A stretch of DNA of 37,708 nucleotides. Origin: a virus. Every line of letters begins with the position of its first letter. Position 1 is the stretch's first letter. The stretch lies in IMG/VR virus record IMGVR_UViG_3300026255_000014, positions 1 through 37,708 of that record. One strand, written 5' to 3'. Both the position numbers and the translations under genes were made by a program. Below are positions 1-37,708 of this stretch, one piece after another. The notes under the pieces were generated by a model. The model was not told the origin of the DNA and made no database searches. It was given only the letters and a program-made list of their open reading frames with translations.

Positions 1-312
1 CCGTTTTGTGGGAGGACACCGAATCCAGACTGGACTGATGAGAGCTACATAGAGTGTACAAATCGTAAATGTTCTCTTTATGGTTATGGAATGAGTACAG
101 GCGACTGGAACACCCGCCCAATTGAGGATGACCTTCGCAAGCGCATTGCCGAGTTGGAGGCGCTTGTTAATGTGTCGGAAGGTCTTTACGAGCGTATCTA
201 TGAGCAAGCAGCCCGCATTGCCGAGCTGGAGGCGGAGATTGTCCAACTTACCGCTCACGATGCTACAGAGCGGCAAGATGATAAGTGGATACCGGAGGTG
301 CAGGATGTGTAA
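1..312 (+). CDS. Lar-like zinc-ribbon protein, 5' truncated by window edge; duplicate copy of 37306..37638
   Basis: ORF track 91..312 translation is identical to the C-terminal part of 37306..37638; the frame is open back to position 1. Confidence 0.5.
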   Translation, partial: PFCGRTPNPDWTDESYIECTNRKCSLYGYGMSTGDWNTRPIEDDLRKRIAELEALVNVSEGLYERIYEQAARIAELEAEIVQLTAHDATERQDDKWIPEVQDV

Positions 313-382
313 CTTTTTCAGTTTTGTAACAGACCCAGTGAATCACCCAGCGGAGTATTACTACTTCGACTGGGAATATCGC
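1..382. repeat. Terminal redundancy, left copy; identical to 37327..37708
   Basis: Direct comparison of the first and last 382 nt of the window shows identity; implies a unit genome of about 37,326 bp. Confidence 0.9.
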
Positions 383-1069
383 AAGGCGCACCTAAACGAC
401 GATGGAGTGGACAGCCATTCGCATATCTGTGCATACTACCTCCTCAACGAGGATAGATGTAACAAATATGAGTTCAATCCGCTGACTGGAAGATTTGATA
501 TTGACCAAATCAACTCGGAGCGTGATGATTCAAATGCTGCAGAAAAGTGGGCGAAACGGCAGGACTTCAAAGAGATTGTCGAGACACTTATTATCAAGCC
601 GATTGTCAAACCGTTTGAGTTGCCAAAGGTAGAACAAGTGACAGATGAACAAATTGGCTGGCTGAAGGAGTGGGCTTCGGTCAGGGATTTGGTCGGGGCT
701 TCGGTCTGGGCTTTGGTCGGGGATTCGGTCAGGGATTCGGTCTGGGCTTTGGTCGGGGTTTCGGTCAGGGATTTGGTCTTGGATTCGGTCAGGGATTTGG
801 TCGGGGCTTCGGTCTGGGCTTCGGTCAGGGCTTCGGTCAGGGATTTGGTCGGGGCTTCGGTCTGGGCTTCGGTCAGGGATTCGGTCTGGGCTTCGGTCTG
901 GGCATATATCAGCAGTTTTTTCGCCATCAACTACAAATACAACTTTTCGTCTGTAGCAAATCTTTGGAACGCAGGGCTTGTACCCTCATTTGACGGTGAG
1001 ACATGGCGGTTGCATAGCAGCGAGAATGCGGATGTGGTTTACGAGTGGACGCCGGAGGTGCAGGAATGA
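305..1069 (+). CDS. Hypothetical protein with internal tetrapeptide tandem-repeat array and C-terminal WTPEVQE tail
   Basis: Same frame as ORF 122..1069; likely start ATG 305 sits 5 nt after GGAGGTG and overlaps the upstream stop. Ends in the conserved junction CCGGAGGTGCAGGAATGA. Frame assignment through the repeat is ambiguous. Confidence 0.5.
   Translation: MCNFFSFVTDPVNHPAEYYYFDWEYRKAHLNDDGVDSHSHICAYYLLNEDRCNKYEFNPLTGRFDIDQINSERDDSNAAEKWAKRQDFKEIVETLIIKPIVKPFELPKVEQVTDEQIGWLKEWASVRDLVGASVWALVGDSVRDSVWALVGVSVRDLVLDSVRDLVGASVWASVRASVRDLVGASVWASVRDSVWASVWAYISSFFAINYKYNFSSVANLWNAGLVPSFDGETWRLHSSENADVVYEWTPEVQE
672..899. repeat. 19 tandem copies of a 12-bp unit GGGNTTYGGTCN
   Basis: Read directly from sequence. 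No stop codons in any forward frame, which is why ORFs 122..1069, 670..993 and antisense 436..930 all cross it. Confidence 0.9.
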
Positions 1070-1395
1070 ACACGCTTAAACCCTGCCCGTTTTGTGGGAG
1101 GACACCGAATCCAGACTGGACTGATGAGAGCTACATAGAGTGTACAAATCGTAAATGTTCTCTTTATGGTTATGGAATGAGTACAGGCGACTGGAACACC
1201 CGCCCAATTGAGGATGACCTTCGCAAGCGCATTGCCGAGTTGGAGGCGCTTGTTAATGTGTCGGAAGGTCTTTACGAGCGTATCTATGAGCAAGCAGCCC
1301 GCATTGCCGAGCTGGAGGCGGAGATTGTCCAACTTACCGCTGATAGCACAGACGAGCGGAAAGATGATAAATGGATACCGGAGGTGCAGGAATGA
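1066..1395 (+). CDS. Lar-family-like zinc-ribbon protein (putative restriction alleviation), paralog B
   Basis: N-terminus MNTLKPCPFCG...C..RKC is a CxxC/CxxC zinc ribbon resembling Lar family proteins, followed by a coiled coil. Near-identical to 37306..37638 except the last ~12 codons. ATG 1066 overlaps the upstream stop (ATGA). Confidence 0.6.
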   Translation: MNTLKPCPFCGRTPNPDWTDESYIECTNRKCSLYGYGMSTGDWNTRPIEDDLRKRIAELEALVNVSEGLYERIYEQAARIAELEAEIVQLTADSTDERKDDKWIPEVQE

Positions 1396-4584: not shown

Positions 4585-5071
4585 AACGCCATTGCCAGAT
4601 GCTTTGAAAGAAGCACAGGGAACGCTGAAGAAGAGCCGAGTAAATGACTCTCAGGCTCGTTTTGACGTACCTAAAGACTCACCGAAACCGCCGACAACGC
4701 TCAATCTCTATGGCAAGCGGTTGTGGAAAGAAATGCTGCCAAAGTTGGTTGAAACAGGTCTTTATACCGAAGGTGATCACCAGGCGTTTGAATTGCTTTG
4801 CATGGCTTATGGTGATCTGATTCAGGCACGCAAAGACCTTAAAGAGTCGGGTACGATTGTTATCACAGACAAGGGCACGGTTTATCAGCACCCTAACGTT
4901 GGGATCGCAAACCAGGCTTGGAATCGGGTGAAACTGATGTTGGGGCAGTTTGGGCTGACACCAGCAGAGCGGACACGAGTAAAAGCACGCTCACCCGAAG
5001 AGAAAAGGGGCAGTTTGGCAGAATCGTTGTTTGCTGCTGCACGTGAAAAGGTTGAGGGTGAGACTGAGTGA
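4574..5071 (+). CDS. terS: Terminase small subunit (P27-family-like)
   Basis: Motif GQFGLTPAERTRVKA and N-terminal RGRTPLP resemble P27-family TerS. Start uncertain: GTG 4574 follows an AGGTGGGG SD; ATG 4547 and 4532 are in-frame alternatives. Confidence 0.7.
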   Translation: MRGRTPLPDALKEAQGTLKKSRVNDSQARFDVPKDSPKPPTTLNLYGKRLWKEMLPKLVETGLYTEGDHQAFELLCMAYGDLIQARKDLKESGTIVITDKGTVYQHPNVGIANQAWNRVKLMLGQFGLTPAERTRVKARSPEEKRGSLAESLFAAAREKVEGETE

Positions 5072-6375
5072 GTGCAAATCTGTATTTAGGTGACTGTCTG
5101 GAAGTCTTATCAACGCTTGAAGCGGATAGCATTGACACCTGCATCACTGACCCGCCTTACGAGTTAGGTTTCATGGGTAAGAAGTGGGATTCAAGCGGCA
5201 TTGCGTTCCAGCCTGAAACTTGGCAAGCCGTATTCAGGGTGCTGAAACCAGGTGCAATTCTGCTTGCCTTCGGCGGCACTCGCACCTATCACCGCATTGC
5301 TTGCGCTATTGAGGACGCTGGCTTTGAAATCCGTGACACTATCGCTTGGGTATACGGGAGCGGATTCCCTAAAAGTTACGACATAAGTAAGGGAATTGAC
5401 AAACAAGCTGGAGCTGAAAGGGAAATAGTAGGCTACAAGGAAACATCAACTTATCCAGATAGCGATGGTGTTGCTCATTACAAAAACAGGCAACAAAGCA
5501 ATGGTTCTCAAGTCAATACAGGAGGTATGCCAGAAATCACCGCGCCCTCCACCCCCGAAGCGCAACTCTGGGATGGCTGGGGCACGGCGTTGAAGCCTGC
5601 CTTTGAGCCGATAGTTGTTGCGATGAAGCCGATTGACGGCACGTTTGTCAACAACGCGCTCACTTGGGGCGTGGCTGGCTTGTGGATTGACGGGGGTAGG
5701 GTGGGGACGTCAAAAAACGTTCCTGCATCACCAAGCGATAAAGGCACTCTGCAATGTAAAGGTTTGGGCGGTGGATGGGATAGAAGCGGAATGAATCCGA
5801 ACATTGGTCGCTTCCCTGCCAACTTGATTCACGACGGCTCGGATGAGGTGGTGAGTGGGTTTCCGAATACTACGAGCGGCAAGGTTGCGGCTGGAACTAT
5901 GCGAGGCTTGAAAAGCAATCACAATGTGGCATACGCAGACATCGCCGCCGGAACTGAATTGACTGGCTACGGCGACTCTGGCTCAGCCGCGCGCTTTTTC
6001 TACTGTGCGAAAGCCAGCCGAAGCGAGCGCAACGCTGGGCTGGAGGGGATGGAAGAAAAGGTCGGCGGTGGAATGAAGGGCACGGAAGACCAAACGCTTT
6101 TGACTGGCTCTGGAAACATCCGCAACAATAAAATGCAAAACCACCATCCCACCGTCAAGCCAATCGAACTGATGCGCTACCTTGTTCGGCTTACCAAAAC
6201 GCCAACAGGCGGGGTGGTACTTGACCCGTTCATGGGGTCTGGCACGACTGGCATTGCTTGCGTGTTGGAAGGACGCGAGTTTATCGGAATTGAGCGGGAA
6301 GCGGAGTATGTCGAGATTGCAGAAAAGCGGATTGCGCATTACAGGTTGCCGATATTGGAAGAAGTGATCGAGTGA
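5068..6375 (+). CDS. DNA methyltransferase (N6-adenine/N4-cytosine, beta-class order)
   Basis: N-terminal DPPY (ITDPPYELGF) and C-terminal AdoMet motif LDPFMGSGTTGIA. Confidence 0.85.
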   Translation: MSANLYLGDCLEVLSTLEADSIDTCITDPPYELGFMGKKWDSSGIAFQPETWQAVFRVLKPGAILLAFGGTRTYHRIACAIEDAGFEIRDTIAWVYGSGFPKSYDISKGIDKQAGAEREIVGYKETSTYPDSDGVAHYKNRQQSNGSQVNTGGMPEITAPSTPEAQLWDGWGTALKPAFEPIVVAMKPIDGTFVNNALTWGVAGLWIDGGRVGTSKNVPASPSDKGTLQCKGLGGGWDRSGMNPNIGRFPANLIHDGSDEVVSGFPNTTSGKVAAGTMRGLKSNHNVAYADIAAGTELTGYGDSGSAARFFYCAKASRSERNAGLEGMEEKVGGGMKGTEDQTLLTGSGNIRNNKMQNHHPTVKPIELMRYLVRLTKTPTGGVVLDPFMGSGTTGIACVLEGREFIGIEREAEYVEIAEKRIAHYRLPILEEVIE

Positions 6376-8966
6376 AAAAGTACGATCCCTGGAATTGCGA
6401 CCTTGATAAGTACGAATTTGACCCTGTGGCTGGGCAGGTTGCAGTCGACTTTATTGAAAATTATATTACCCATGTCAAAGGGGAGTTAGGCGGCAAGCCT
6501 TTTTTGCTTTTGGAGTGGGAAAAGGATTTTGTAAGAAACCTTTTCGGTTGGAAAGAAAAGGAAACAGGTTATCGGCGTTACCGTGAGGCGTTTGTATTTG
6601 TGGCACGGAAAAATGGCAAAGCATTAGAAGTCAATACTCCGATTCTGACTACTACAGGTTGGAAGAAACACGGCGATTTAGTCCCTGGAGACTTTGTTTT
6701 TTCTCCTGATGGCGTACCCGCAAAGGTTATCTATTCTACTCCTCATTATGAGGGGAATTGTTATTTTGTGGATTTCTCAGGCGATGAAGCAATTATCGCT
6801 CACGAAAATCACGAATGGAAAACTAACCGCACCTGGTATACAGGAAAGCCCAAATGGATAGAAGGTGAAAAGCCTTTGGTTACCACTAAGCGGATTGCGG
6901 AAACTCTACGATGTGGGAAACGCCAAGACCTTGTGCATTCTGTGGATGTTGCGAAACCGATACAGTTTGAGCCAAAAGAATACACAATACCCCCGTATGT
7001 TTTAGGCGTTTGGCTTGGCGATGGCGACTCTGACAGTTGCAGGATCACGATTGCAGAACCTGAAATTGTCCAGAAGCTATCTGATTATGGTTATCCAGCC
7101 GAATATAGATCAAGATACCGACACCTTGTTGGACGGGGGAAGTTTCAAAAGCAACTGCGTGAAAAGGGCTTACTGGGCAATAAGCATATACCACAAGAAT
7201 ACTTGCTTGGTTCAGTTGAGCAAAGGATCGACCTCTTGCGCGGATTGATGGACACAGACGGTTATGTGTCTTCGGCTGGACAATGCGGAATTGCATTAAC
7301 CGACGGTAATTTGTTTCGCCAAGTTGTCGAATTAATTACAGGCTTGGGATTAAAGCCTCGCGTAATGATTGATCGTGCTCAGTTAAATGGGGTTGACTGC
7401 GGAGTTAGATATAGAGTCCACTTCTATGCCTATCAAGACACGCCAATAGCATATATTGAGCGAAAAGCCAAACGGCAAAAAGAAACTCCAAAAACAAGGC
7501 GGCGCAGCCAGACTCGGATGATTTCAAATGTTACGCCCGCAGGTAAGCAAACAGTCAACTGCATCACAGTCGAAGGCGGGATGTATCTCGCAGGAAAGCA
7601 ACTTATCCCAACTCACAACTCACCTCTTGGGGCTGCCATCGCGCTTTATCTGTTGATTGTAGACAATGAGCCTGGTGCAGAGTTGATCTCTGTAGCAGCA
7701 GACCGAGACCAGGCACGGGCGATTTTTGACACGGCTCGTTTTATGGTAAAGCAAAACGCCGCCCTGGACGAATTGGTTAGTGCATATCGAAATGCGATTG
7801 TCGCTAAGCAAGGGGCTTCAGTTTACAAAGTTGTTTCATCGGATGCTGGCACTAAGCATGGTGGAAACTTACATGCTGCGCTTTTTGACGAGTTGCACGC
7901 TCAGAAGAACCGAGACCTTTACGATGTTGTGCAAACCAGTTTTGGCGCGCGCCGTCAACCACTGCTGATTTCTTTTAGTACGGCAGGGTTTGATCGTGAG
8001 TCGATCTGCTATGAAGTTTACTCAATGGCAAAGCAGATTTCTGAGGGCATAATCCAGCGAGATTGGTTTTACCCCGTAATATACGAGGCATCGCCAGAAG
8101 ACGATTGGACAAGCGAAGATACGTGGAAGAAAGCCAATCCGAGTTTGGGACACTCGATCAAGATTGATTACCTGCAGAAGAATTATGAAAAGGCTCTATC
8201 AAGCCCGCAGTTCCAAAACACTTTCAAGCGTTTGTATCTCAATATGTGGACATCGGCAGAAACACGCTGGCTTGATATGCAAAACTGGGACAAATGCGGT
8301 GAGCAACCGATTGACATGGGACTGCTTGAAGGGGCTGAATGTTACGGCGGTCTTGACCTTGCGACAGTTTCTGACATTGCTGCTTTTGTACTGGATTTCC
8401 CGAATGAAAGCGGTGAAGAGGAATTGCACACCTGGCTTCCGACCTTGTTCTGTCCAGAGTCAAAGTTGACCGACCCAGGTTTCATTGACCGCGACATTTA
8501 CAGGGCTTGGGCTGACCAGGGCTATTTGATTGCAACGCCTGGAAACGTGATTGACTACGAGTACATCATTGCTGAAATTGAGCGATTAGGTGAACTTTAC
8601 AACATTAAAGAGATCGCATTTGACCGTTGGGGTGCTGCACAGATTTCACAAACGCTTACCAATATGGGCTTTACTTTGGTTGGTTTTGGTCAAGGGTACG
8701 TGAGCATGTCACCACCCACAAAAGAAGTTGAGCGGTTGATATTACAAGGCAGGGTGAGACATGGAAACCACCCTGTAATGCGTTGGATGGCGGATAACGT
8801 TATGGTTACGACTGACCCTGCAGGGAATATCAAGCCAGACAAGAAGAAAAGCAGGCAGAAGATTGACGGCGTGGTTGCGGCAATCATGGCAACCGATAGG
8901 GCAATTAGAAATTCTGTAGGTCGCAAGGACTCTGTTTACGAAAAAAGAGGGTTGGTTGTTCTATGA
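6372..8966 (+). CDS. terL: Terminase large subunit, interrupted by an in-frame intein
   Basis: 864 aa; removing residues 84..416 yields the P-loop ARKNGKS and a Walker B-like LLIVDNE with a C-terminal nuclease-like domain. GTG start overlaps the upstream stop. Confidence 0.9.
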   Translation: MKKYDPWNCDLDKYEFDPVAGQVAVDFIENYITHVKGELGGKPFLLLEWEKDFVRNLFGWKEKETGYRRYREAFVFVARKNGKALEVNTPILTTTGWKKHGDLVPGDFVFSPDGVPAKVIYSTPHYEGNCYFVDFSGDEAIIAHENHEWKTNRTWYTGKPKWIEGEKPLVTTKRIAETLRCGKRQDLVHSVDVAKPIQFEPKEYTIPPYVLGVWLGDGDSDSCRITIAEPEIVQKLSDYGYPAEYRSRYRHLVGRGKFQKQLREKGLLGNKHIPQEYLLGSVEQRIDLLRGLMDTDGYVSSAGQCGIALTDGNLFRQVVELITGLGLKPRVMIDRAQLNGVDCGVRYRVHFYAYQDTPIAYIERKAKRQKETPKTRRRSQTRMISNVTPAGKQTVNCITVEGGMYLAGKQLIPTHNSPLGAAIALYLLIVDNEPGAELISVAADRDQARAIFDTARFMVKQNAALDELVSAYRNAIVAKQGASVYKVVSSDAGTKHGGNLHAALFDELHAQKNRDLYDVVQTSFGARRQPLLISFSTAGFDRESICYEVYSMAKQISEGIIQRDWFYPVIYEASPEDDWTSEDTWKKANPSLGHSIKIDYLQKNYEKALSSPQFQNTFKRLYLNMWTSAETRWLDMQNWDKCGEQPIDMGLLEGAECYGGLDLATVSDIAAFVLDFPNESGEEELHTWLPTLFCPESKLTDPGFIDRDIYRAWADQGYLIATPGNVIDYEYIIAEIERLGELYNIKEIAFDRWGAAQISQTLTNMGFTLVGFGQGYVSMSPPTKEVERLILQGRVRHGNHPVMRWMADNVMVTTDPAGNIKPDKKKSRQKIDGVVAAIMATDRAIRNSVGRKDSVYEKRGLVVL
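6621..7619 (+). mobile_element. Intein (333 aa) with LAGLIDADG homing endonuclease domain inside the TerL Walker A motif
   Basis: Begins ALEVNTPILT, contains LGVWLGDGDS and LLRGLMDTDGYV, ends ...LIPTHN followed by Ser; splicing restores ARKNGK|SPLG. Confidence 0.8.
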
Positions 8967-21864: not shown

Positions 21865-22920
21865 ATGGCTGAGCCTTTAACTAAGAAAATTAATGATTTA
21901 CCCGAAATGGGTGTCGTAGCAGCGTCTAACGACAAATTGCTGATGCTTGATGTGAGCGAGAGTGCTGTTAACATGACAAAGTTAGTGCCGATGAATTTGC
22001 TTTCAATTCACACGGCATCGCAACTTGCCGCAAATACGGTGGGCAGTTCTCAGATAAAAGCAGGCGCAGTAACAAACAGCAAACTTGGCGCAGACGCTGT
22101 TAATGGGGCTAAGATTGCAGATGACGCAATTGGCAATGAGCACATTAGAGACTCCGTAGCTTTGTCGGTTATCGGGCGTTCTTCCAGTACCAGCGGTAAC
22201 CCCGCTGACATCGTTGCAGGTACAAACGGTCACGTGCTCAGACGATCTGGTACAACACTTGGTTTCGGCCAAGTTGCCAATGCTGGAATTGCTAACGGTG
22301 CAGTAACAAACAGCAAACTTGGCGCAGACGCTGTTGATGGGGCTAAGATTGCAGATAACGCAATTGGCAATGAGCACATTAGAGACTCTGCTGCATTATC
22401 TGTAATTGGGCGTTCTGCGAATAGCAGCGGTAACCCCGCTGACATTGCAGCTACTACCGATGGTTATGTCCTGAGACGATCAGGAACAACTTTGGGATTT
22501 GGTCAGGTTGTTACTGCTGGAATTGCGAATAATGCTGTTACCGAAGAGAAGTTAGGCACGATTAAGCGCACCCTCTTTCTTCGGGTGACCGCGCCAGACG
22601 ACACATTAACAGTGGGAAGCACCACCAAATTCTTCCCGTTCCCGATTACCCTAAACAACTTTATCGTTGTCGACGCAAGAATCAATCTCATTACGGCATC
22701 GTCAAGTGGAACGGTCACAGTCGCTTTGTTAAATCAAGGCGGCACAATGACGACCTTATCACTTGCTGCTGGAGCAACGGGCATGAGCGCAAGCGGAACA
22801 ATCTCAACATCGTACCGCACTGCGATAACGAATAACTTTCTCGGTGTGAACGCAACCGCCGCTGGAACAGGGGCTAAAGGGCTTAGCATAACACTCGTTT
22901 TGCAAGGAGTGCCTGCATGA
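21865..22920 (+). CDS. Tail fiber protein with two tandem ~80-aa repeats
   Basis: Internal duplication AVTNSKLGADAV.GAKIAD.AIGNEHIRDS.ALSVIGRS...SGNPADI......G.VLRRSGTTLGFGQV, roughly nt 22060..22540. Confidence 0.6.
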   Translation: MAEPLTKKINDLPEMGVVAASNDKLLMLDVSESAVNMTKLVPMNLLSIHTASQLAANTVGSSQIKAGAVTNSKLGADAVNGAKIADDAIGNEHIRDSVALSVIGRSSSTSGNPADIVAGTNGHVLRRSGTTLGFGQVANAGIANGAVTNSKLGADAVDGAKIADNAIGNEHIRDSAALSVIGRSANSSGNPADIAATTDGYVLRRSGTTLGFGQVVTAGIANNAVTEEKLGTIKRTLFLRVTAPDDTLTVGSTTKFFPFPITLNNFIVVDARINLITASSSGTVTVALLNQGGTMTTLSLAAGATGMSASGTISTSYRTAITNNFLGVNATAAGTGAKGLSITLVLQGVPA

Positions 22921-26032: not shown

Positions 26033-28426
26033 ATGGCAAATTGGGCTAAGTTACAAGAGCAACTGACAGGACTGCCTGTTGTAAAGCGAGACAAGCACAG
26101 CATCCACTTTGCCAAAGGTGACGGGCAAATCGTTGCCAACTTCTCAGGCGCACCCTGTCACTATGAAGAGAACGGCATCTGGAAAGCACTCGACACCGCC
26201 ATCGTTGAACTGGAAGACGGCTCACTTGGCGCAAAGGGCGTACCAGTCCGCTTGAACCTGAACGGGCTTGTCAGGCTTATCAACGAAAACAACGAGGACT
26301 TATACAGTCAAGTCACGACACGGGTGGGCGTGTTCAATAGCACTACCCGCAACTTGGTAGATTACATCAACCTGCCAGTAGGACAAGTTCAAGACGACCT
26401 GCTGATAAAAGACACCGACCTCTATTCTCACAGTTTGCGCTTGACCGAAACAGGCTTGCGCGAAGAAATTGTCATCAAGTCAAAGCCAGCGTTTGTAACC
26501 GACAAGGCTAACTTATGGCTGGTACTTGACACGGTTGTGACGGGCGTAAGTTTCGAGGACGGCTGGCTGGATGCGTTTGAGATTGCGCAAATGCACTTCC
26601 CACCTCCAACCGCTACCGATGCGGAGGGGCGAGAGGGCACGGCGAAACGCTATGCCAAGAATATTGGTGGCGTTCAGCACATCTTTACTGGCTTGAAATT
26701 CAGTGAGTTGTATCGGGCGGCTTACCCTGTAACGGTTGACCCTGACTTTAGTGGTGGGTCTGGATATGTAATTACTAGTCAAAGTACTGATTATGCTACT
26801 GCAAGAACAACGAGTGTATCTTCAGCAGCTTGGTCGAATAGGTCTGACGTTGGGCAGGGACAGTGGTCTGTTTATCTAAGAACTTTACGCATCTTTACAA
26901 AGTTTGACACATCAAGTATAGGAGCAGGCTCAACAGTTACACAAGTTAACTTGGCTATGTGCCCTTATTATAACAATTCTGCTACAGATTTTGACATCCA
27001 GATATGTATGCAAGACTGGTCGGCTCAAGACCCCATAGCATCGGGAAATAGAGAAACAGCGTTTGACAACTGTCTCGCAGAAACAGATTACGATGTTTGG
27101 TTGAACAGTGCTGATTGTCCGAAAAGACAGAGATATACGGGTGGAAATATGACCACATCGTGGATTAACAAGACTGGCACAACATATTATAGTATTCGCT
27201 CAAGTAGGGACTACAACGGCGATGAGCGTGTAATTGATGGAAATACTGAAACTGTTAACTTGTGTGCGCCAGATAACGCCACCGAATCCTACCGCCCCGT
27301 TCTTACCGTCACCTATCTCATTCCCGACTACACCCTCACTTGCGCCGCCGGTTCATACTCGCTGACTGGCACGGATTGCACGCTTACGCACACTCCGGCA
27401 TCGCAAAACCTGACCCTCACCTGTTCCGCTGGCTCATATTCGCTAACAGGCACGAACGCCGACTTGACGGTCAAGCGGAATTATGTGCTGGCGTGTGGTG
27501 CTGGAAGTTATTCGCTCACCGGCTCGGATGTGGATTTTGTTCTGCAACGCAATTACTCGCTTGAATGCGGTGCTGGAAGTTACAGCCTGACTGGTACGGA
27601 CACGACATTCGAGGTCAAGCGAAATTACACGCTTGTCTGTGAAGCTGGAAGCTACAGTCTTACTGGTACTAACGCCGACTTGACGGTCACCCGACATTAC
27701 ACGCTAACCTGTGAGACTGGAAGTTATGCGCTTGCTGGCACTAACGCCGACCTTATTTTACAGCGCAACTATGTGTTAGCTTGCTCTGCTGGCAATTACT
27801 TAATCACAGGCACGGACGTAACACTCACTGTTCAACGCAATTACACCCTCACCTGCGCCGCCGGTTCATACTCGCTGACTGGCACTAACGTCACGCTCAC
27901 ATCAACCGTAAAGCAAAACTTGACGCTGGCTTGTTCTGCAGGCTCGTACTCGCTTACTGGCACTAACGCCGACTTGACGGTCACCCGACATTACACGCTA
28001 ACCTGTGAAGCTGGAGGTTATGCGCTTACTGGCTCAATCGTTGATCTGACAGTCCAGCGCAACTATGTGTTGGTGTGTGAAGCTGGTAGTTACGCGCTAA
28101 CCGGAACAAACGCAGGCTTGACTTCTGCTCGCACAATGGCACTCGAATCAGGTTCGTACGCCTTGACTGGCACGAATGCCGGTCTATACCGCGCGTTGGT
28201 TATGGCTTGTGAGGCTGGAACTTATGCGCTCACAGGCTCGGATGCTACGTTCAATGCCAATTACATATTTGCTCTCGGAATGGGGAGTTACGTTCTGGTT
28301 GGCACGAGCGTGGGATTGTTCGTTCTCTCGCCAACACCGGCTTGCAGAACCGCGACAATCGAATTTGAGAACAGAACATTTGCAATTCCGCATGAGAATA
28401 GAACATTAGAGGTCACATGTCACTAA
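26033..28426 (+). CDS. Large repeat protein: ~430-aa N-terminal domain plus ~16 tandem 22-23-aa Cys-containing repeats
   Basis: Repeats of consensus YTLTC.AGSYSLTGTNADLTV.RN span roughly nt 27320..28330. Confidence 0.6.
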   Translation: MANWAKLQEQLTGLPVVKRDKHSIHFAKGDGQIVANFSGAPCHYEENGIWKALDTAIVELEDGSLGAKGVPVRLNLNGLVRLINENNEDLYSQVTTRVGVFNSTTRNLVDYINLPVGQVQDDLLIKDTDLYSHSLRLTETGLREEIVIKSKPAFVTDKANLWLVLDTVVTGVSFEDGWLDAFEIAQMHFPPPTATDAEGREGTAKRYAKNIGGVQHIFTGLKFSELYRAAYPVTVDPDFSGGSGYVITSQSTDYATARTTSVSSAAWSNRSDVGQGQWSVYLRTLRIFTKFDTSSIGAGSTVTQVNLAMCPYYNNSATDFDIQICMQDWSAQDPIASGNRETAFDNCLAETDYDVWLNSADCPKRQRYTGGNMTTSWINKTGTTYYSIRSSRDYNGDERVIDGNTETVNLCAPDNATESYRPVLTVTYLIPDYTLTCAAGSYSLTGTDCTLTHTPASQNLTLTCSAGSYSLTGTNADLTVKRNYVLACGAGSYSLTGSDVDFVLQRNYSLECGAGSYSLTGTDTTFEVKRNYTLVCEAGSYSLTGTNADLTVTRHYTLTCETGSYALAGTNADLILQRNYVLACSAGNYLITGTDVTLTVQRNYTLTCAAGSYSLTGTNVTLTSTVKQNLTLACSAGSYSLTGTNADLTVTRHYTLTCEAGGYALTGSIVDLTVQRNYVLVCEAGSYALTGTNAGLTSARTMALESGSYALTGTNAGLYRALVMACEAGTYALTGSDATFNANYIFALGMGSYVLVGTSVGLFVLSPTPACRTATIEFENRTFAIPHENRTLEVTCH

Positions 28427-31713: not shown

Positions 31714-31742
31714 CGCGGGGGCAGTACCCGCCAGCTCCACTA

Positions 31743-31780
31743 AAAGAGCACCAGCTAAATTGTAGGTGCTCTTTCGTTTT
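31743..31780 (+). terminator. Rho-independent terminator closing the late operon
   Basis: AAAGAGCACC-loop-GGTGCTCTTT followed by CGTTTT. Confidence 0.7.
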
Positions 31781-31781
31781 A

Positions 31782-31855
31782 AGTATTGTATTCGAGTATT
31801 GTAATTAAGTATTGTAAGACGCATCCCATTTTAAGTATTGATTTCAGGTATTGTA
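31782..31855. repeat. Five direct copies of RGTATTGW (AGTATTGTA core), iteron-like
   Basis: Copies at about 31782, 31795, 31808, 31834, 31847. Confidence 0.7.
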
Positions 31856-32029
31856 ACGCCTTCTTCTGCCATTGCCTTATCAAGCAGGTTGCGTAGAGTA
31901 CGGCTGATCCCCTGTGGCTGTGACGTAAAAAAAGGGGGTAAAAACAGGGGTTATTATAATATCGCATAATTACACCTTATTATAATACAACGCTTATTTT
32001 AGGGGTATTTTATCGCTTGCAATGGCCAC

Positions 32030-32101
32030 GGGTTCAGGGTTCAGGGTTCAGGGGTTCACGATCTCAGGGTTCAGGGTTCAGCGTCCAGGGGTAGGGGGGG
32101 G
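32030..32101. repeat. Tandem GGGTTCA heptamer array ending in a G8 run
   Basis: GGGTTCA x3, GGGGTTC, gap, GGGTTCA x2, degenerate copies, then GGGGTAGGGGGGGG. Confidence 0.85.
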
Positions 32102-32214
32102 CGAAATCTCTACCGCGCAAGCCCCCCGAGCGCGCGCGTAATCTTAGGCACGCGAGGGCAAATATCCGACAGGGGGTTAATCTTACCAATTATTCAAGAA
32201 ATCCCGAAAAACAC

Positions 32215-32242
32215 TTGACTTTTGCTTTAATTTGTGTATAAT
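32215..32242 (+). promoter_or_regulatory. Sigma-70-type promoter, near consensus (probable early promoter)
   Basis: TTGACT (32215..32220), 16-nt spacer, TATAAT (32237..32242); RBS TAAGGAGC and ATG at 32284 downstream. Confidence 0.65.
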
Positions 32243-32283
32243 TCAGGTGTAGTAAAGTAATTCACACAAAGATAAGGAGCAAA

Positions 32284-32475
32284 ATGTTTGACACGCAAGA
32301 AATCTATTTATCCCGATTAGAACCACAAGAAGAAGAAATTGTCACTTGCCCACATTGCGAAAGTTATCTCGTTGAGCATCAGGACAATTTCACCTACGTC
32401 TGCCTGGATTGTCTGCAAGAGTTCAGCATCCACCCGATGGCAGATGACGACTCAATACCGTTTCGAAAGGAGTAA
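32284..32475 (+). CDS. Small zinc-ribbon protein (first early gene)
   Basis: CPHC...CLDC motifs; strong promoter and RBS upstream. Confidence 0.6.
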   Translation: MFDTQEIYLSRLEPQEEEIVTCPHCESYLVEHQDNFTYVCLDCLQEFSIHPMADDDSIPFRKE

Positions 32476-34017: not shown

Positions 34018-34980
34018 ATGAATAATGAACTAATAACGCTTGATGAGAGAAGCCGTTTATACCAGCTTGAAGAAACTATCAGGCAAGGGCTGAATACCTT
34101 CGTGGATGTTGGGAACGCCCTGCTTGAGATACGGGACAAACGGCTTTACAGGCAAGAGCACAGCACGTTCGAAGAATACTGCAATAAGCAGTGGAACTTT
34201 ACAAAACAGCGTGTCTACCAACTTATGGATTCTGCCTCTGTAATCGACACTCTAAAAAAGTCAACCGTGGTTGACTTTTTACCAACCTCTGAACGCCAAG
34301 CCCGCCCGCTTGCGTCACTTGAGCCAGAAGAACAGGTTGAAGCATGGAAGCGCGTTATTACATCAACGCCGGAGGGCAATGTTACAGCCAAGATTGTTTT
34401 GAAGGCTGTAAAGGAAGTTGAGCGCGAGAAGCGCATTGAGCGAAGGCAAGAGCGCATAGAAAGTACTCCTGTAATTCCAAACGGGAAATACAACGTCATT
34501 TATGCTGACCCTCCCTGGCAATACGCATTTGGGTTTGATATTCATGGGGCAGCCGATAGACACTACTCCACTATGTCAATTGATGAACTTTGTGAATTGC
34601 CGATAAGAGACTTGACCGAAGACAACGCAGTCTTATTTATGTGGACGACATCACCAAAGTTATTTGATTCTTATGCTGTAATAAAGGCATGGGGATTTGA
34701 GTATAAAACTTCCTTCGTCTGGGACAAAGTGAAACATGTCATGGGGCACTATAACAGTGTCAGGCATGAGTTCCTTCTACTTTGCACAAAGGGAAGTTTT
34801 CCAAAACAGTCTAATACTTTACACGACAGCGTTATTGAAATCGAGCGATCGGACGAACACAGCGAAAAACCTGAATATTTTCGGCAACTAATTGAGACGA
34901 TGTATCCGCTATCGAAAAAAATAGAGTTATTCGCACGTAAAACTGTCGATGGCTGGGATGGCTGGGGGAATGAAATATGA
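34018..34980 (+). CDS. MT-A70-family N6-adenine DNA methyltransferase with N-terminal putative DNA-binding domain
   Basis: VIYADPPWQY, FMWTT, KAWGF, VWDK, EHSEKP, ELFARK...GWDGWGNE are MT-A70 signatures. Confidence 0.85.
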   Translation: MNNELITLDERSRLYQLEETIRQGLNTFVDVGNALLEIRDKRLYRQEHSTFEEYCNKQWNFTKQRVYQLMDSASVIDTLKKSTVVDFLPTSERQARPLASLEPEEQVEAWKRVITSTPEGNVTAKIVLKAVKEVEREKRIERRQERIESTPVIPNGKYNVIYADPPWQYAFGFDIHGAADRHYSTMSIDELCELPIRDLTEDNAVLFMWTTSPKLFDSYAVIKAWGFEYKTSFVWDKVKHVMGHYNSVRHEFLLLCTKGSFPKQSNTLHDSVIEIERSDEHSEKPEYFRQLIETMYPLSKKIELFARKTVDGWDGWGNEI

Positions 34981-37309: not shown

Positions 37310-37638
37310 ACACGCTTAAACCCTGTCCGTTTTGTGGGAGGACACCGAATCCAGACTGGACTGATGAGAGCTACATAGAGTGTACAAATCGTAAATGTTC
37401 TCTTTATGGTTATGGAATGAGTACAGGCGACTGGAACACCCGCCCAATTGAGGATGACCTTCGCAAGCGCATTGCCGAGTTGGAGGCGCTTGTTAATGTG
37501 TCGGAAGGTCTTTACGAGCGTATCTATGAGCAAGCAGCCCGCATTGCCGAGCTGGAGGCGGAGATTGTCCAACTTACCGCTCACGATGCTACAGAGCGGC
37601 AAGATGATAAGTGGATACCGGAGGTGCAGGATGTGTAA
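37306..37638 (+). CDS. Lar-family-like zinc-ribbon protein (putative restriction alleviation), paralog A
   Basis: Same N-terminal zinc ribbon and coiled coil as 1066..1395; complete copy of the gene truncated at 1..312. Confidence 0.6.
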   Translation: MNTLKPCPFCGRTPNPDWTDESYIECTNRKCSLYGYGMSTGDWNTRPIEDDLRKRIAELEALVNVSEGLYERIYEQAARIAELEAEIVQLTAHDATERQDDKWIPEVQDV

Positions 37639-37708
37639 CTTTTTCAGTTTTGTAACAGACCCAGTGAATCACCCAGCGGAGTATTACTACTTCGACTGGG
37701 AATATCGC
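37327..37708. repeat. Terminal redundancy, right copy; identical to 1..382
   Basis: Direct sequence identity. Confidence 0.9.
37631..37708 (+). CDS. 5' end of the tandem-repeat protein gene (duplicate of 305..382), truncated by window end
   Basis: Identical to 305..382. Confidence 0.45.
   Translation, partial: MCNFFSFVTDPVNHPAEYYYFDWEYR

What the first reader, a model, noticed from the sequence alone, without database searches (positions are those of the whole stretch)
672..899. 19 copies of a 12-bp tandem repeat inside a gene, open in all forward frames
The unit GGGNTTYGGTCN has no stop codon in any forward frame, so the coding frame cannot be set from the repeat itself. The flanks favour the 305..1069 frame, giving SVRD/LVGA/SVWA-type tetrapeptide repeats, whereas the alternative frame gives GFGQ/GFGR/GFGL glycine-rich repeats. 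Because the unit is a multiple of 3, copy-number change by slippage would never break the frame, making this a candidate length-variable locus.
Basis: seen in the sequence. Interest (0 to 1): 0.7.

Follow-up and report, generated by a model that had tools for sequence, protein, structure and literature searches.

The report
Variable tetrapeptide repeat in phage gene
The 12-base repeat is real and codes for 19 copies of a four-residue motif ([Trp/Arg/Gly][Asp/Ala]-Ser-Val) in the middle of an early phage protein from a very large, completely unannotated metagenomic family, in which the number and make-up of these units change between relatives while the two end domains stay conserved.

Summary
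There are 19 in-register 12-nt units at 671-898, plus a degenerate 20th unit at 899-910. All three forward frames are open.

The reading frame is settled by comparison with relatives. In 44 related loci the peptide unit [W/R/G][D/A]SV is kept while the Ser and Val codons differ between lineages. The other frames carry stops in many of those loci. The GFGx frame is therefore an accident of TCG/GTC codon choice.

The gene (305-1069, 254 aa) belongs to a family with thousands of metagenomic members. It has no Pfam, PHROG, NCBIfam, PADLOC, PDB or GenBank-phage match.

Arrays hold 2-31 units, median 16. Near-identical alleles carry 19, 6 or 2 units. However, the 19-unit allele is base-for-base identical in contigs from at least seven samples. 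The locus is length-polymorphic, not hypermutable.

Units within an array differ only by single-base toggles.

The N-terminal domain, which starts Met-Cys, defines a wider superfamily (1852 cluster representatives). In other members it is fused to different arrays: 8- and 9-residue repeats, LRR-like or MORN repeats.

Function is unknown. My best guess is a variable recognition or spacer module in an early accessory protein.

The parts
305..1069 (+). Complete gene, 254 aa plus stop. Its ATG lies 8 nt inside the end of the upstream gene, and its TGA overlaps the ATG of the downstream gene (ATGA at 1066-1069).
   Evidence: ORF and translation. Full-length homologues at 60-100% identity. The exact protein occurs on 10 contigs.
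292..304 (+). Junction CCGGAGGTGCAGG holding a GGAGG Shine-Dalgarno 6 nt before the ATG. The same 17-mer junction recurs at 1052-1068 and 1378-1394.
   Evidence: Read directly from the sequence. Many neighbouring genes in related loci end in ...PEVQE/PEVQDV.
305..670 (+). N-terminal domain (residues 1-122). Invariant residues are M1 C2 F5 S6 W23 G34 D36 S37 H38 P59 D67 W82. It ends in the helix TDEQIGWLKE that leads into the array.
   Evidence: Alignments A1 and A3. A profile search finds 1852 cluster representatives, nearly always starting within the first few residues of the hit protein. AF2 pLDDT is only 40-73.
671..898 (+). The tandem array: 19 x 12 nt = 19 tetrapeptides [W/R/G/L][D/A/V][S/L]V.
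   Evidence: Frame and conservation.
899..910 (+). Degenerate 20th unit (WAYI), which is the conserved start of the C-terminal domain (W-A-Y nearly invariant).
899..1066 (+). C-terminal domain (56 aa) with the conserved motif AYxSSFF...LWxxGLVPSFDGxxWRLHxG. It is predicted as one helix plus three strands.
   Evidence: Conservation in A1. AF2 pLDDT is 81-93.
670..993 (+). Alternative-frame ORF (GFGQ/GFGR/GFGL, 107 aa). It is a by-product, not a gene.
   Evidence: This frame carries stops in many homologous arrays and its peptide is not conserved. Such 'shadow' ORFs cluster only among close relatives.
436..930 (-). Antisense ORF (TEAQTESL..., 164 aa). It is a by-product, not a gene.
   Evidence: Its peptide changes wherever the sense-strand synonymous codons change (derived from the codons listed).
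1066..1395 (+). Downstream Lar-like zinc-ribbon plus coiled-coil gene. A 96% identical copy lies immediately upstream of the repeat gene (window 1-312 = 37327-37638).
   Evidence: Pfam Lar_restr_allev E=3.4e-4, below the cut-off, and PHROG Lar-like families E about 1e-3. Duplication shown.

Best explanation
Positions 671-898 are the central coding tandem array of a 254-aa protein (305-1069) made from the early, co-oriented gene block of a roughly 37.3-kb tailed phage.

Shown:
- The array is read in the 305 frame as 19 tetrapeptides [W/R/G][D/A][S/L]V.
- The protein belongs to a very large, unannotated metagenomic phage family. Its members have a conserved N-terminal domain of about 120 aa and a conserved C-terminal domain of about 55 aa, with 2-31 such units in between.
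- Within one array all units share the same codons. They differ only by single-base toggles at three nucleotides: TGG/AGG/GGG, GAT/GCT and TCG/TTG.
- Between lineages the synonymous codons differ but the peptide pattern does not.
- Near-identical alleles differ by clean loss of internal units.

Inferred:
- Arrays grow, shrink and homogenise by replication slippage or unequal recombination between 12-nt units. These changes are always in frame.
- Selection keeps Ser-Val as the structural core and keeps W/R/G and D/A as the alternatives allowed at the two exposed positions.
- The array forms an elongated repetitive element. AlphaFold2 suggests alpha-helix continuing the pre-array helix, possibly a hairpin, but a beta-solenoid is not excluded.
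- The length and surface of this element vary while the two end domains stay constant.
- It serves as a variable recognition or spacer module of an early accessory protein, for host takeover or counter-defence.
- The invariant Cys2 and Asp36-Ser37-His38 of the N-domain are the candidate active or metal site.
For: - Frame. Ser is written with 5 codons plus 3 AGT, and Val with 4 codons, across 44 loci. Alternative frames carry stops, for example 10 in L021, 13 in L037 and 10 in L043. The flanks are open only in the 305 frame.
- Family size: 3300 and 4756 hits at E<=1e-3. 184 IMG/VR stretches encode a relative.
- Unit composition: W38/R27/G27, D42/A41/N5, S90/L7, V93 percent at the four positions, over 284 proteins. 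The automated count found 5-31 copies, median 16. A 2-unit allele is also seen.
- Concerted evolution: codons are homogeneous within each array. GAT is always paired with GCT and GAC with GCC (29 loci, rho=1), and unit position 1 is almost always an NGG codon.
- Deletion alleles: L118 carries 6 units, which are units 1-3 and 17-19 of the window, with the C flank 171/171. L119 carries 2 units, with flanks 359/366 and 170/171.
- Paralogue diversification: L007 has three tandem copies with N flanks 93-96% identical and arrays of 25, 14 and 16 units.
- Structure: AF2 gives helices at 114-164 and 171-207, with pLDDT 82-95 over the pre-array helix and the first units, and a confident C-domain.
- Modularity: the N-domain profile finds 1852 cluster representatives. 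In these the array is replaced by 8- or 9-residue repeats, LRR-like repeats or MORN_2 repeats (E=1.8e-23). Dulem virus 35 XCD05138.1 shares the N-domain (hhalign probability 97.7%) but has a 9-residue array.
- Context: the gene follows Erf, a methyltransferase, a replication initiator and SSB. It lies among Lar-like and DUF551 small genes and before the terminase.
Against: - Function is not demonstrated. There is no hit in Pfam, PHROGs, NCBIfam, PADLOC, PDB sequences, or by fold search.
- The AF2 models are weak overall: mean pLDDT 59 and 68, and about 40 across most of the array. The helical assignment is therefore uncertain.
- Ser, Val, Gly, Asp and Trp are poor helix formers (established propensities).
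- Sister subfamilies carry beta-helix-like 8/9-mers at the same place.
- The 19-unit allele is identical in at least seven samples, so the rate of copy-number change is not high.
- Neighbouring genes vary between loci, so no conserved partner gene points to a pathway.
Confidence: 0.6

Rival explanations
1. The array is translated, wholly or additionally, in the GFGQ/GFGR/GFGL frame. It would act as a glycine-rich or overlapping gene (670-993), perhaps reached by frameshifting.
For: In this lineage two of the three variable nucleotides are third positions in the GFG frame. Codon usage scores that frame slightly higher, +0.16 against -0.05 per codon. There is a weak KRTAP hit below threshold.
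Against: In other lineages the same frame reads quite different peptides and carries many stops: 10 in L021, 8 in L036, 13 in L037. The N and C flanks are open only in the 305 frame, and both flanks lie in the same frame. All homologues are full-length in the S-V frame.
Confidence: 0.02
2. The repeat acts at the DNA or RNA level, and its coding is incidental. It could be iterons or protein-binding sites inside a gene, a recombination hotspot, or a structured or G-quadruplex RNA.
For: The 12-nt period is close to one helical turn. A GGG tract occurs in every unit. Phage origins can lie inside genes (general knowledge, e.g. lambda O).
Against: The nucleotide sequence of the unit is not conserved between lineages, while the peptide is. 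The RNA folding energy equals that of shuffles (-92.4 against -93.6 +/- 4.1) and no G-quadruplex appears in the MFE structure. There is no Rfam match.
Confidence: 0.04
3. It is a hypermutable contingency locus. Copy number would change at high frequency within a phage population and tune the protein on ecological time scales.
For: Units are near-identical and the array is always in frame. Alleles with 19, 6 and 2 units occur on near-identical flanks, some from the same ENA accession series. Series of 19, 15, 13 and 4 units occur on another flank type.
Against: The 228-nt array is base-for-base identical in L117 and L120-L125. These come from at least seven samples and at least two assembler naming styles, and the gene neighbourhoods differ between them.
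Confidence: 0.15
4. The array is not helical. It would form a beta-solenoid or beta-helix with 8- or 12-residue coils, or else be a flexible, disordered linker between two domains.
For: The composition is rich in Ser, Val, Gly, Asp and Trp. AF2 pLDDT is about 40 over most of the array. Sister subfamilies have 8/9-residue repeats with weak Beta_helix_3, FapA-solenoid and gp5-C hits. Adjacent units avoid the same W/R/G residue and there is a weak even-lag excess, which hints at an 8-residue superperiod.
Against: AF2 places the first units in a helix with pLDDT 82-95 that continues the pre-array helix, in both models. No beta-solenoid family matches the SVxx array itself.
Confidence: 0.3
5. The copy number, or the array itself, is an assembly artefact of short-read metagenomics.
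For: The array (228 nt) is longer than a typical read, and assemblers can collapse repeats.
Against: The identical 19-unit array was assembled independently in eight contigs besides the window. The short alleles (24 and 72 nt) sit on contigs whose k141_ names suggest MEGAHIT with k=141. If so, a single 141-mer spans the whole array, and every k-mer of the contig must exist in reads (inference from the contig names and how de Bruijn assemblers work).
Confidence: 0.03

Closest known systems
Coding minisatellites / in-frame VNTRs that form variable-length stalks, e.g. the Ser-Asp dipeptide repeat region of staphylococcal ClfA/Sdr adhesins (general knowledge)
   Same: There is a short in-frame unit and a copy number that differs between alleles. 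Units within one array are homogenised. The repeat sits between conserved functional domains. L037's array gives a faint ClfA SD-region hit (E=0.004, far below the cut-off).
   Different: This is a cytoplasmic early phage protein, not a wall-anchored adhesin. The unit is four residues, with two fixed and two restricted-variable positions. There is no sequence homology.
Hypervariable-repeat recognition proteins (TALE, LRR families), as surveyed by Altae-Tran et al. 2020 (PMC10392669)
   Same: Repeats have fixed scaffold positions and a few hypervariable positions. Repeat number is variable. Paralogues within one genome differ mainly in the array (L007). Other members of the N-domain superfamily carry LRR-like or MORN arrays in the same position.
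   Different: The unit is only 4 residues, against 20-35. The alphabet at the variable sites is tiny (W/R/G and D/A/N). No nucleic-acid or protein target is known. No homology was found.
Short-period beta-solenoid repeat proteins: pentapeptide repeats A(D/N)LXX, and the T4 gp5 C-terminal octapeptide beta-helix (general knowledge)
   Same: The period is very short, with one invariant aliphatic residue and one small residue per unit. Sister subfamilies give weak Beta_helix_3 and Gp5_trimer_C hits.
   Different: No Pfam match for the SVxx array. AF2 predicts helix rather than beta. A 4-residue side would be shorter than in any solenoid I know of.
Lar-like restriction-alleviation genes and other small early 'accessory' genes of lambdoid-type phages
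   Same: They share the genomic position: after the replication genes, before the packaging genes, translationally coupled, and mosaic. The repeat gene is flanked on both sides by Lar-like genes.
   Different: There is no sequence similarity between the repeat protein and Lar. The association is by neighbourhood only, and the neighbours vary.

Membership tests
In-frame coding tandem repeat (VNTR/minisatellite) locus | Head-to-tail copies of a unit whose length is a multiple of 3, inside an ORF | tested here: met
   19 x 12 nt at 671-898 inside ORF 305-1069.
In-frame coding tandem repeat (VNTR/minisatellite) locus | Copy number differs between otherwise near-identical alleles | tested here: met
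   19, 6 and 2 units on flanks 92-100% identical. Series of 19, 15, 13 and 4 units on a second flank type.
In-frame coding tandem repeat (VNTR/minisatellite) locus | Length heterogeneity within one population or sample | not testable with these tools
   No reads are available. The 19-unit allele is identical across at least seven samples.
Phase-variable contingency locus (simple-sequence repeat switching) | A change in repeat number shifts the reading frame or promoter spacing, switching the gene on or off | tested here: not met
   The unit is 12 nt. All observed alleles stay in frame.
Diversity-generating retroelement (DGR) variable region | A second, invariant template copy of the variable region nearby, with differences only at template adenines | tested here: not met
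   There is no distant copy of the array in the 37.7-kb window. The variable bases are T/A/G, A/C and C/T toggles, not A-to-N.
Diversity-generating retroelement (DGR) variable region | Reverse transcriptase gene in the element | not tested
   Only 20 of the window's ORFs were scanned, and those against PHROGs only. None of those was an RT.
Pentapeptide-repeat and other Pfam beta-solenoid repeat families | Match to the family profile at or above its gathering score | tested here: not met
   No Pfam family at E<=1 for the window protein. Six relatives gave only single chance-level hits (E 0.057-0.63), all far below cut-off.
Glycine-rich GFGX repeat proteins (keratin-associated-like) | The GFGX frame is the translated, conserved frame | tested here: not met
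   KRTAP scores 18.1 bits against a cut-off of 21.1. The frame is interrupted and not conserved in homologues.
TALE-like programmable repeat proteins | Fixed scaffold residues plus hypervariable residues at set positions in each repeat | tested here: met
   S 90% and V 93% are fixed. Positions 1 and 2 vary among W/R/G and D/A/N.
TALE-like programmable repeat proteins | One repeat recognises one base or ligand unit, with a demonstrated code | not testable with these tools
   No target is known, and there is no homology to TALE, PPR or PUF.
The unnamed 'Met-Cys N-domain + repeat array' superfamily defined here | N-terminal domain beginning M-C, with conserved F5 S6 W23 G34 D36 S37 H38 P59 D67 W82 | tested here: met
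   The window protein is the first row of A1 and A3 and carries all of these residues. The profile finds 1852 representatives.

The most novel reading that the evidence does not exclude
The Met-Cys N-domain superfamily would be a previously unrecognised class of phage 'targeting-effector' proteins. A small N-terminal catalytic or metal-binding domain (Cys2, Asp36-Ser37-His38) would be aimed at host or defence targets by an interchangeable, fast-evolving repeat scaffold: SVxx tetrapeptides, 8/9-mer repeats, LRR or MORN. In the SVxx arrays, the two variable residues per unit (W/R/G and D/A/N) would form a combinatorial recognition code and copy number would set the reach. This would make it the shortest-period programmable repeat known.
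Probability: 0.12. Interest if true: 0.85.

Novelty: new variant of a known kind. Interest (0 to 1): 0.55.

Why it matters
In-frame coding repeats with variable copy number are a known phenomenon, so the locus itself is not a new principle. This case matters for three other reasons.

First, it exposes a very large protein family: thousands of members, and 1852 clusters at 50% identity for the N-domain alone. The family is restricted to uncultivated phages and has no annotation in any library tested.

Second, its architecture resembles that of adaptive recognition proteins. A conserved N-terminal domain with an invariant Cys at residue 2 is followed by an interchangeable hypervariable repeat module and a small cap. 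The gene sits where phages keep host-takeover and counter-defence genes.

Third, the tetrapeptide array is unusual. It has two fixed and two variable positions, and the variable positions are confined to residues reachable from one another by a single base change.

The case also shows that codon usage can pick the wrong frame in a homogenised repeat, and that comparison with relatives settles the question.

Tried and rejected
- Pfam, PHROGs, NCBIfam and PADLOC scans of the window protein, its separate domains and diverged relatives gave nothing at or above threshold.
- PDB sequence searches with the single protein and with profiles A1 and A3 gave nothing.
- GenBank phages: there was no megablast or tblastn hit for the window sequence. 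Only the N-domain of a distant relative hit two uncultured gut phages.
- Literature: searches for the peptide strings and for repeat, phage and hypervariable terms found no description of this family.
- The codon-usage frame test is uninformative or misleading here.
- DNA/RNA-level explanations were rejected. The RNA fold is not different from shuffles, there is no G-quadruplex and there is no Rfam hit.
- DGR was rejected because there is no template copy.
- The DNA-mimic idea was rejected because the array is near neutral, with mean net charge -0.17 per unit.
- Host assignment failed. Genome-collection hits are all metagenome bins except one record titled as a strain (an Azospirillaceae bacterium), and their taxa are mutually inconsistent (bacterial candidate phyla, Chloroflexota, archaea). 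These are most likely mis-binned phage contigs. The window has no tRNA genes.
- Gene-neighbourhood clustering found no conserved partner gene. The most frequent 'neighbour' cluster was the shadow ORFs of the array itself.

Full report
**1. The observation**

Reading 1-1500 and cutting it into 12-nt pieces shows 19 head-to-tail units at 671-898. The consensus is [T/A/G]GGG[C/A/T]TT[C/T]GGTC. A degenerate 20th unit, TGGGCATATATC, follows at 899-910.

Tandem Repeats Finder scores the array 275-326, and the repeat finder gives a constant spacing of 12. None of the three forward frames has a stop inside the array, and two of the three reverse frames are open as well. Only unit nucleotides 1, 5 and 8 vary.

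**2. Which frame is read**

The flanks are open only in the 305 frame (0 stops, against 7 and 10 in the N flank, and 1 and 3 in the C flank). They also have positive codon log-odds only in that frame.

Inside the array, codon usage is no help. The GFG frame scores +0.16 per codon and the S-V frame -0.05. This is because the S-V frame uses minor codons: TCG is 13% of Ser, GTC 19% of Val, AGG 16% of Arg and GGG 16% of Gly. Two of the three variable nucleotides are third positions in the GFG frame, which on its own looks like purifying selection in that frame.

Comparison with relatives settles the matter. I analysed 44 loci carrying a full or near-full-length copy, taken from IMG/VR. In all of them the peptide unit x-x-S-V is kept. 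Ser is written TCG, TCT, TCA, TCC or AGC, with 3 AGT. Val is written GTC, GTT, GTG or GTA. The choice differs from locus to locus. The other frames then carry stops: for example 10, 8 and 13 in the +1 frame of L021, L036 and L037, and 10 in the +2 frame of L043.

The all-frames-open property and the GFGx peptide are therefore accidents of the TCG/GTC codon choice in this lineage. The same argument disposes of the antisense ORF 436-930.

**3. The gene and its family**

ORF 305-1069 encodes 254 aa. It has an N-terminal part (1-122), the array (123-198) and a C-terminal part (199-254). No family matches it or its diverged relatives at threshold in any of these libraries:
- Pfam, PHROGs, NCBIfam and PADLOC
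- PDB sequences
- GenBank phages, 50,697 records

Yet the family is very large. There were 3300 hits at E<=1e-3 among the candidates scored for the window protein, and 4756 for a relative that is 39% identical. All are unnamed or labelled 'hypothetical', and nearly all come from metagenome assemblies; a few are NCBI records.

Hits in the genome collection are all metagenome bins except one record titled as a strain, and the taxa are mutually inconsistent. Mis-binned phage contigs are the most likely explanation.

The positions invariant in the 97-sequence alignment A1 are M1 F5 S6 W23 S37 P59 W82 K98 P103 T113 W123 Y201 W221 G224 F229 W234. C2, G34, D36 and H38 are conserved in 90% or more of the sequences.

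**4. Anatomy and evolution of the array**

Over 284 proteins the unit composition is as follows:

| Unit position | Residues |
|---|---|
| 1 | W 38%, R 27%, G 27% |
| 2 | D 42%, A 41%, N 5% |
| 3 | S 90%, L 7% |
| 4 | V 93% |

The automated count found 5-31 units, median 16. A 2-unit allele, P0027, is also seen.

Within any one array the codons are homogeneous. Position 1 is almost always an NGG codon (TGG, AGG or CGG, GGG). Arrays that write Asp as GAT write Ala as GCT, and those that use GAC use GCC. This linkage is perfect across 29 loci.

Units of one array therefore differ only by single-base toggles, while different lineages have fixed different synonymous versions of the unit. This is the signature of concerted evolution by slippage or unequal exchange, combined with selection on the peptide.

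The alternatives W/R/G and D/A recur in every codon background. They are therefore selected, not merely mutational noise.

Adjacent units avoid carrying the same W/R/G residue (0.282 against 0.347 in shuffles), and there is a weak excess at even lags. These sequences are not independent, so I treat this only as a hint of an 8-residue superperiod.

**5. Is the copy number variable?**

Yes, but not wildly.

- Of the 120 closest proteins, 82 have lengths equal to 254 modulo 4.
- L118 has a C flank identical to the window (171/171) and an N flank of 336/366. It carries 6 units, which are exactly units 1-3 plus 17-19 of the window array.
- L119 has flanks of 359/366 and 170/171 and carries 2 units.
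- A second flank type shows a series of 19, 15, 13 and 4 units that differ by clean internal deletions.
- The short alleles sit on contigs whose k141_ names suggest MEGAHIT with k=141, so the whole array would fit inside a single k-mer. That makes assembly collapse unlikely (inference).

On the other hand, the complete 765-nt gene is identical or differs at 1 nt in six contigs from six samples. These carry at least two assembler naming styles, and the neighbouring genes differ between them. The 228-nt array is also identical in L117, from a seventh sample, whose N flank differs at 15 positions. So the 19-unit allele is stable enough to spread unchanged, and the gene moves as a cassette between phage backgrounds.

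L007 carries three tandem paralogues. Their N flanks are 93-96% identical, but their arrays have 25, 14 and 16 units of different composition. The array is the part that diversifies.

**6. Structure**

AlphaFold2 was run twice with about 100-sequence alignments:
- The 19-unit protein gave mean pLDDT 59.
- The 2-unit allele gave mean pLDDT 68.

The segments modelled with confidence are the helix leading into the array and the first few units (pLDDT 82-95), and the C-terminal helix plus three strands (81-93). The rest of the array is modelled as helix, with a break near its middle, but at pLDDT about 40. The N-domain scores 40-73.

I take 'elongated helical rod or hairpin with an S-V stripe' as the leading model. 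A beta-solenoid remains a serious rival for two reasons. The composition is unfavourable to helix. And sister subfamilies carry beta-helix-like 8/9-mers at the same position.

**7. A wider superfamily**

A profile of the N-domain alone (A3) finds 1852 cluster representatives at 50% identity with E<=1e-3, of which 396 have E<=1e-10. The match nearly always begins within the first few residues of the protein.

Only 37 of the best 150 carry S-V arrays. The others carry different arrays:
- 8-residue repeats (GGTVxSIW/R, NSTVEAxD)
- 9-residue repeats (NSQVGEMRE, SSTVREMRG)
- 18- and 20-residue repeats, one of them LRR-like
- MORN_2 repeats (E=1.8e-23)
- or they are fragments

The single annotated GenBank example I looked at is Dulem virus 35 XCD05138.1, labelled 'hypothetical protein', which lies just after that phage's repressor genes. 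It shares the N-domain (hhalign probability 97.7%, E=1.6e-12) but has a 9-residue array. A position toggling between W and R recurs in several of these other arrays.

The architecture is thus a conserved N-domain, an interchangeable hypervariable repeat module, and a small cap.

**8. Genomic setting**

The window is terminally redundant: 1-382 equals 37327-37708. It therefore represents a genome of about 37,326 bp, circular or circularly permuted, with all genes on one strand.

The gene order is:
- early promoter region
- small genes
- Erf
- methyltransferase
- replication initiator
- SSB
- Lar-like gene
- the repeat gene
- a second Lar-like copy
- more small genes
- small terminase
- methyltransferase
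- large terminase
- portal
- tape measure

.

In related loci the immediate neighbours vary. They are small, mosaic genes with Lar-like, DUF551 and coiled-coil modules.

This is the region where phages keep accessory, host-takeover and anti-restriction genes (general knowledge). That is the only, and indirect, functional clue.

**9. Verdict**

- *Shown:* the frame, the family, the concerted evolution, and the copy-number polymorphism.
- *Inferred:* the mechanism of gain and loss, the structural role of S-V against the variable positions, and the recognition or spacer function.
- *Unknown:* the biochemical activity and the target.

The phenomenon is a known kind, an in-frame coding VNTR or hypervariable repeat protein. 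Its form here is new, and it sits in a large family that nobody has described.

Noticed in passing
window 1-382 and 37327-37708: The two ends of the window are identical (300/300 in the reported repeat). The window is therefore a terminally redundant, or circular, assembly of a phage genome of about 37,326 bp. All called genes are on the + strand.
   Followed up: partly
window 1-312 (=37327-37638) and 1066-1395; also 1799-1869: The repeat gene is bracketed by two 96% identical copies of a Lar-like zinc-ribbon/coiled-coil gene. A third gene (1550-2014) shares the KRIAELEAEIDQLTADSTDERKDDK module. Direct repeats of about 300 bp on both sides could delete or move the repeat gene by homologous recombination.
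   Followed up: partly
window 292-307, 1052-1068, 1378-1394; related loci L001-L019: The same junction, CCGGAGGTGCAGG(A)ATG, recurs at successive gene boundaries. It combines a Shine-Dalgarno, a start codon and an overlapping stop. As a result many unrelated small genes end in ...(W)xPEVQE or ...LPEPPEV. It may act as a shared linker for cassette shuffling.
   Followed up: partly
L120, L122, L123, L124 compared with the window: The nucleotide-identical repeat gene sits next to different genes in different contigs. There is an RNA ligase upstream in L120, and a Lar+DUF551 fusion downstream in L122/L123. The gene moves as a cassette.
   Followed up: partly
L007 4001-6274; also L033, L034, L040, L075: Some phages carry two or three paralogues of the repeat gene; the three in L007 are in tandem. 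In L007 the end domains are nearly identical, but the arrays differ (25, 14 and 16 units).
   Followed up: yes
P0241-P0390; L116 2501-3253 (Dulem virus 35 XCD05138.1): The Met-Cys N-domain is fused in other proteins to quite different tandem arrays: 8-, 9-, 18- and 20-residue repeats, LRR-like repeats and MORN_2 repeats. Several of these also have a position toggling between W and R. Two proteins of about 575 aa (P0278, P0375) are tandem duplications of the whole architecture without regular repeats.
   Followed up: partly
window 31714-32284: This is the only long non-coding stretch. It holds five copies of (A)AGTATTGTA (31781-31855), about eight copies of GGGTTCA (32030-32090), a G-rich run, and a TTGACT-17-TATAAT promoter-like site near 32216-32250, just before the first early gene (ATG at 32285). 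It is probably the early control region, and possibly an origin.
   Followed up: no
window 22063-22530 and 27329-28112: There are other coding repeats in the tail region. One is a 234-bp unit present twice (82% identical) in ORF 21865-22920. The other is a set of 72-81-bp repeats (four or more copies) in the 797-aa ORF 26033-28426, which has no PHROG match.
   Followed up: no
window 5068-6375, 34018-34980 and 6372-8966: There are two DNA methyltransferase genes, and one of them lies between the small and large terminase genes. The large-terminase ORF is long (864 aa), with an N-terminal extension that gives weak P-loop loader/primase hits.
   Followed up: no
window 671-898: The array is written almost entirely in this genome's minor codons (TCG, GTC, AGG, GGG). 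Arg is AGG and Gly is GGG in nearly all lineages. This implies frequent recent interconversion of TGG, AGG and GGG rather than long-standing Arg or Gly codons.
   Followed up: yes
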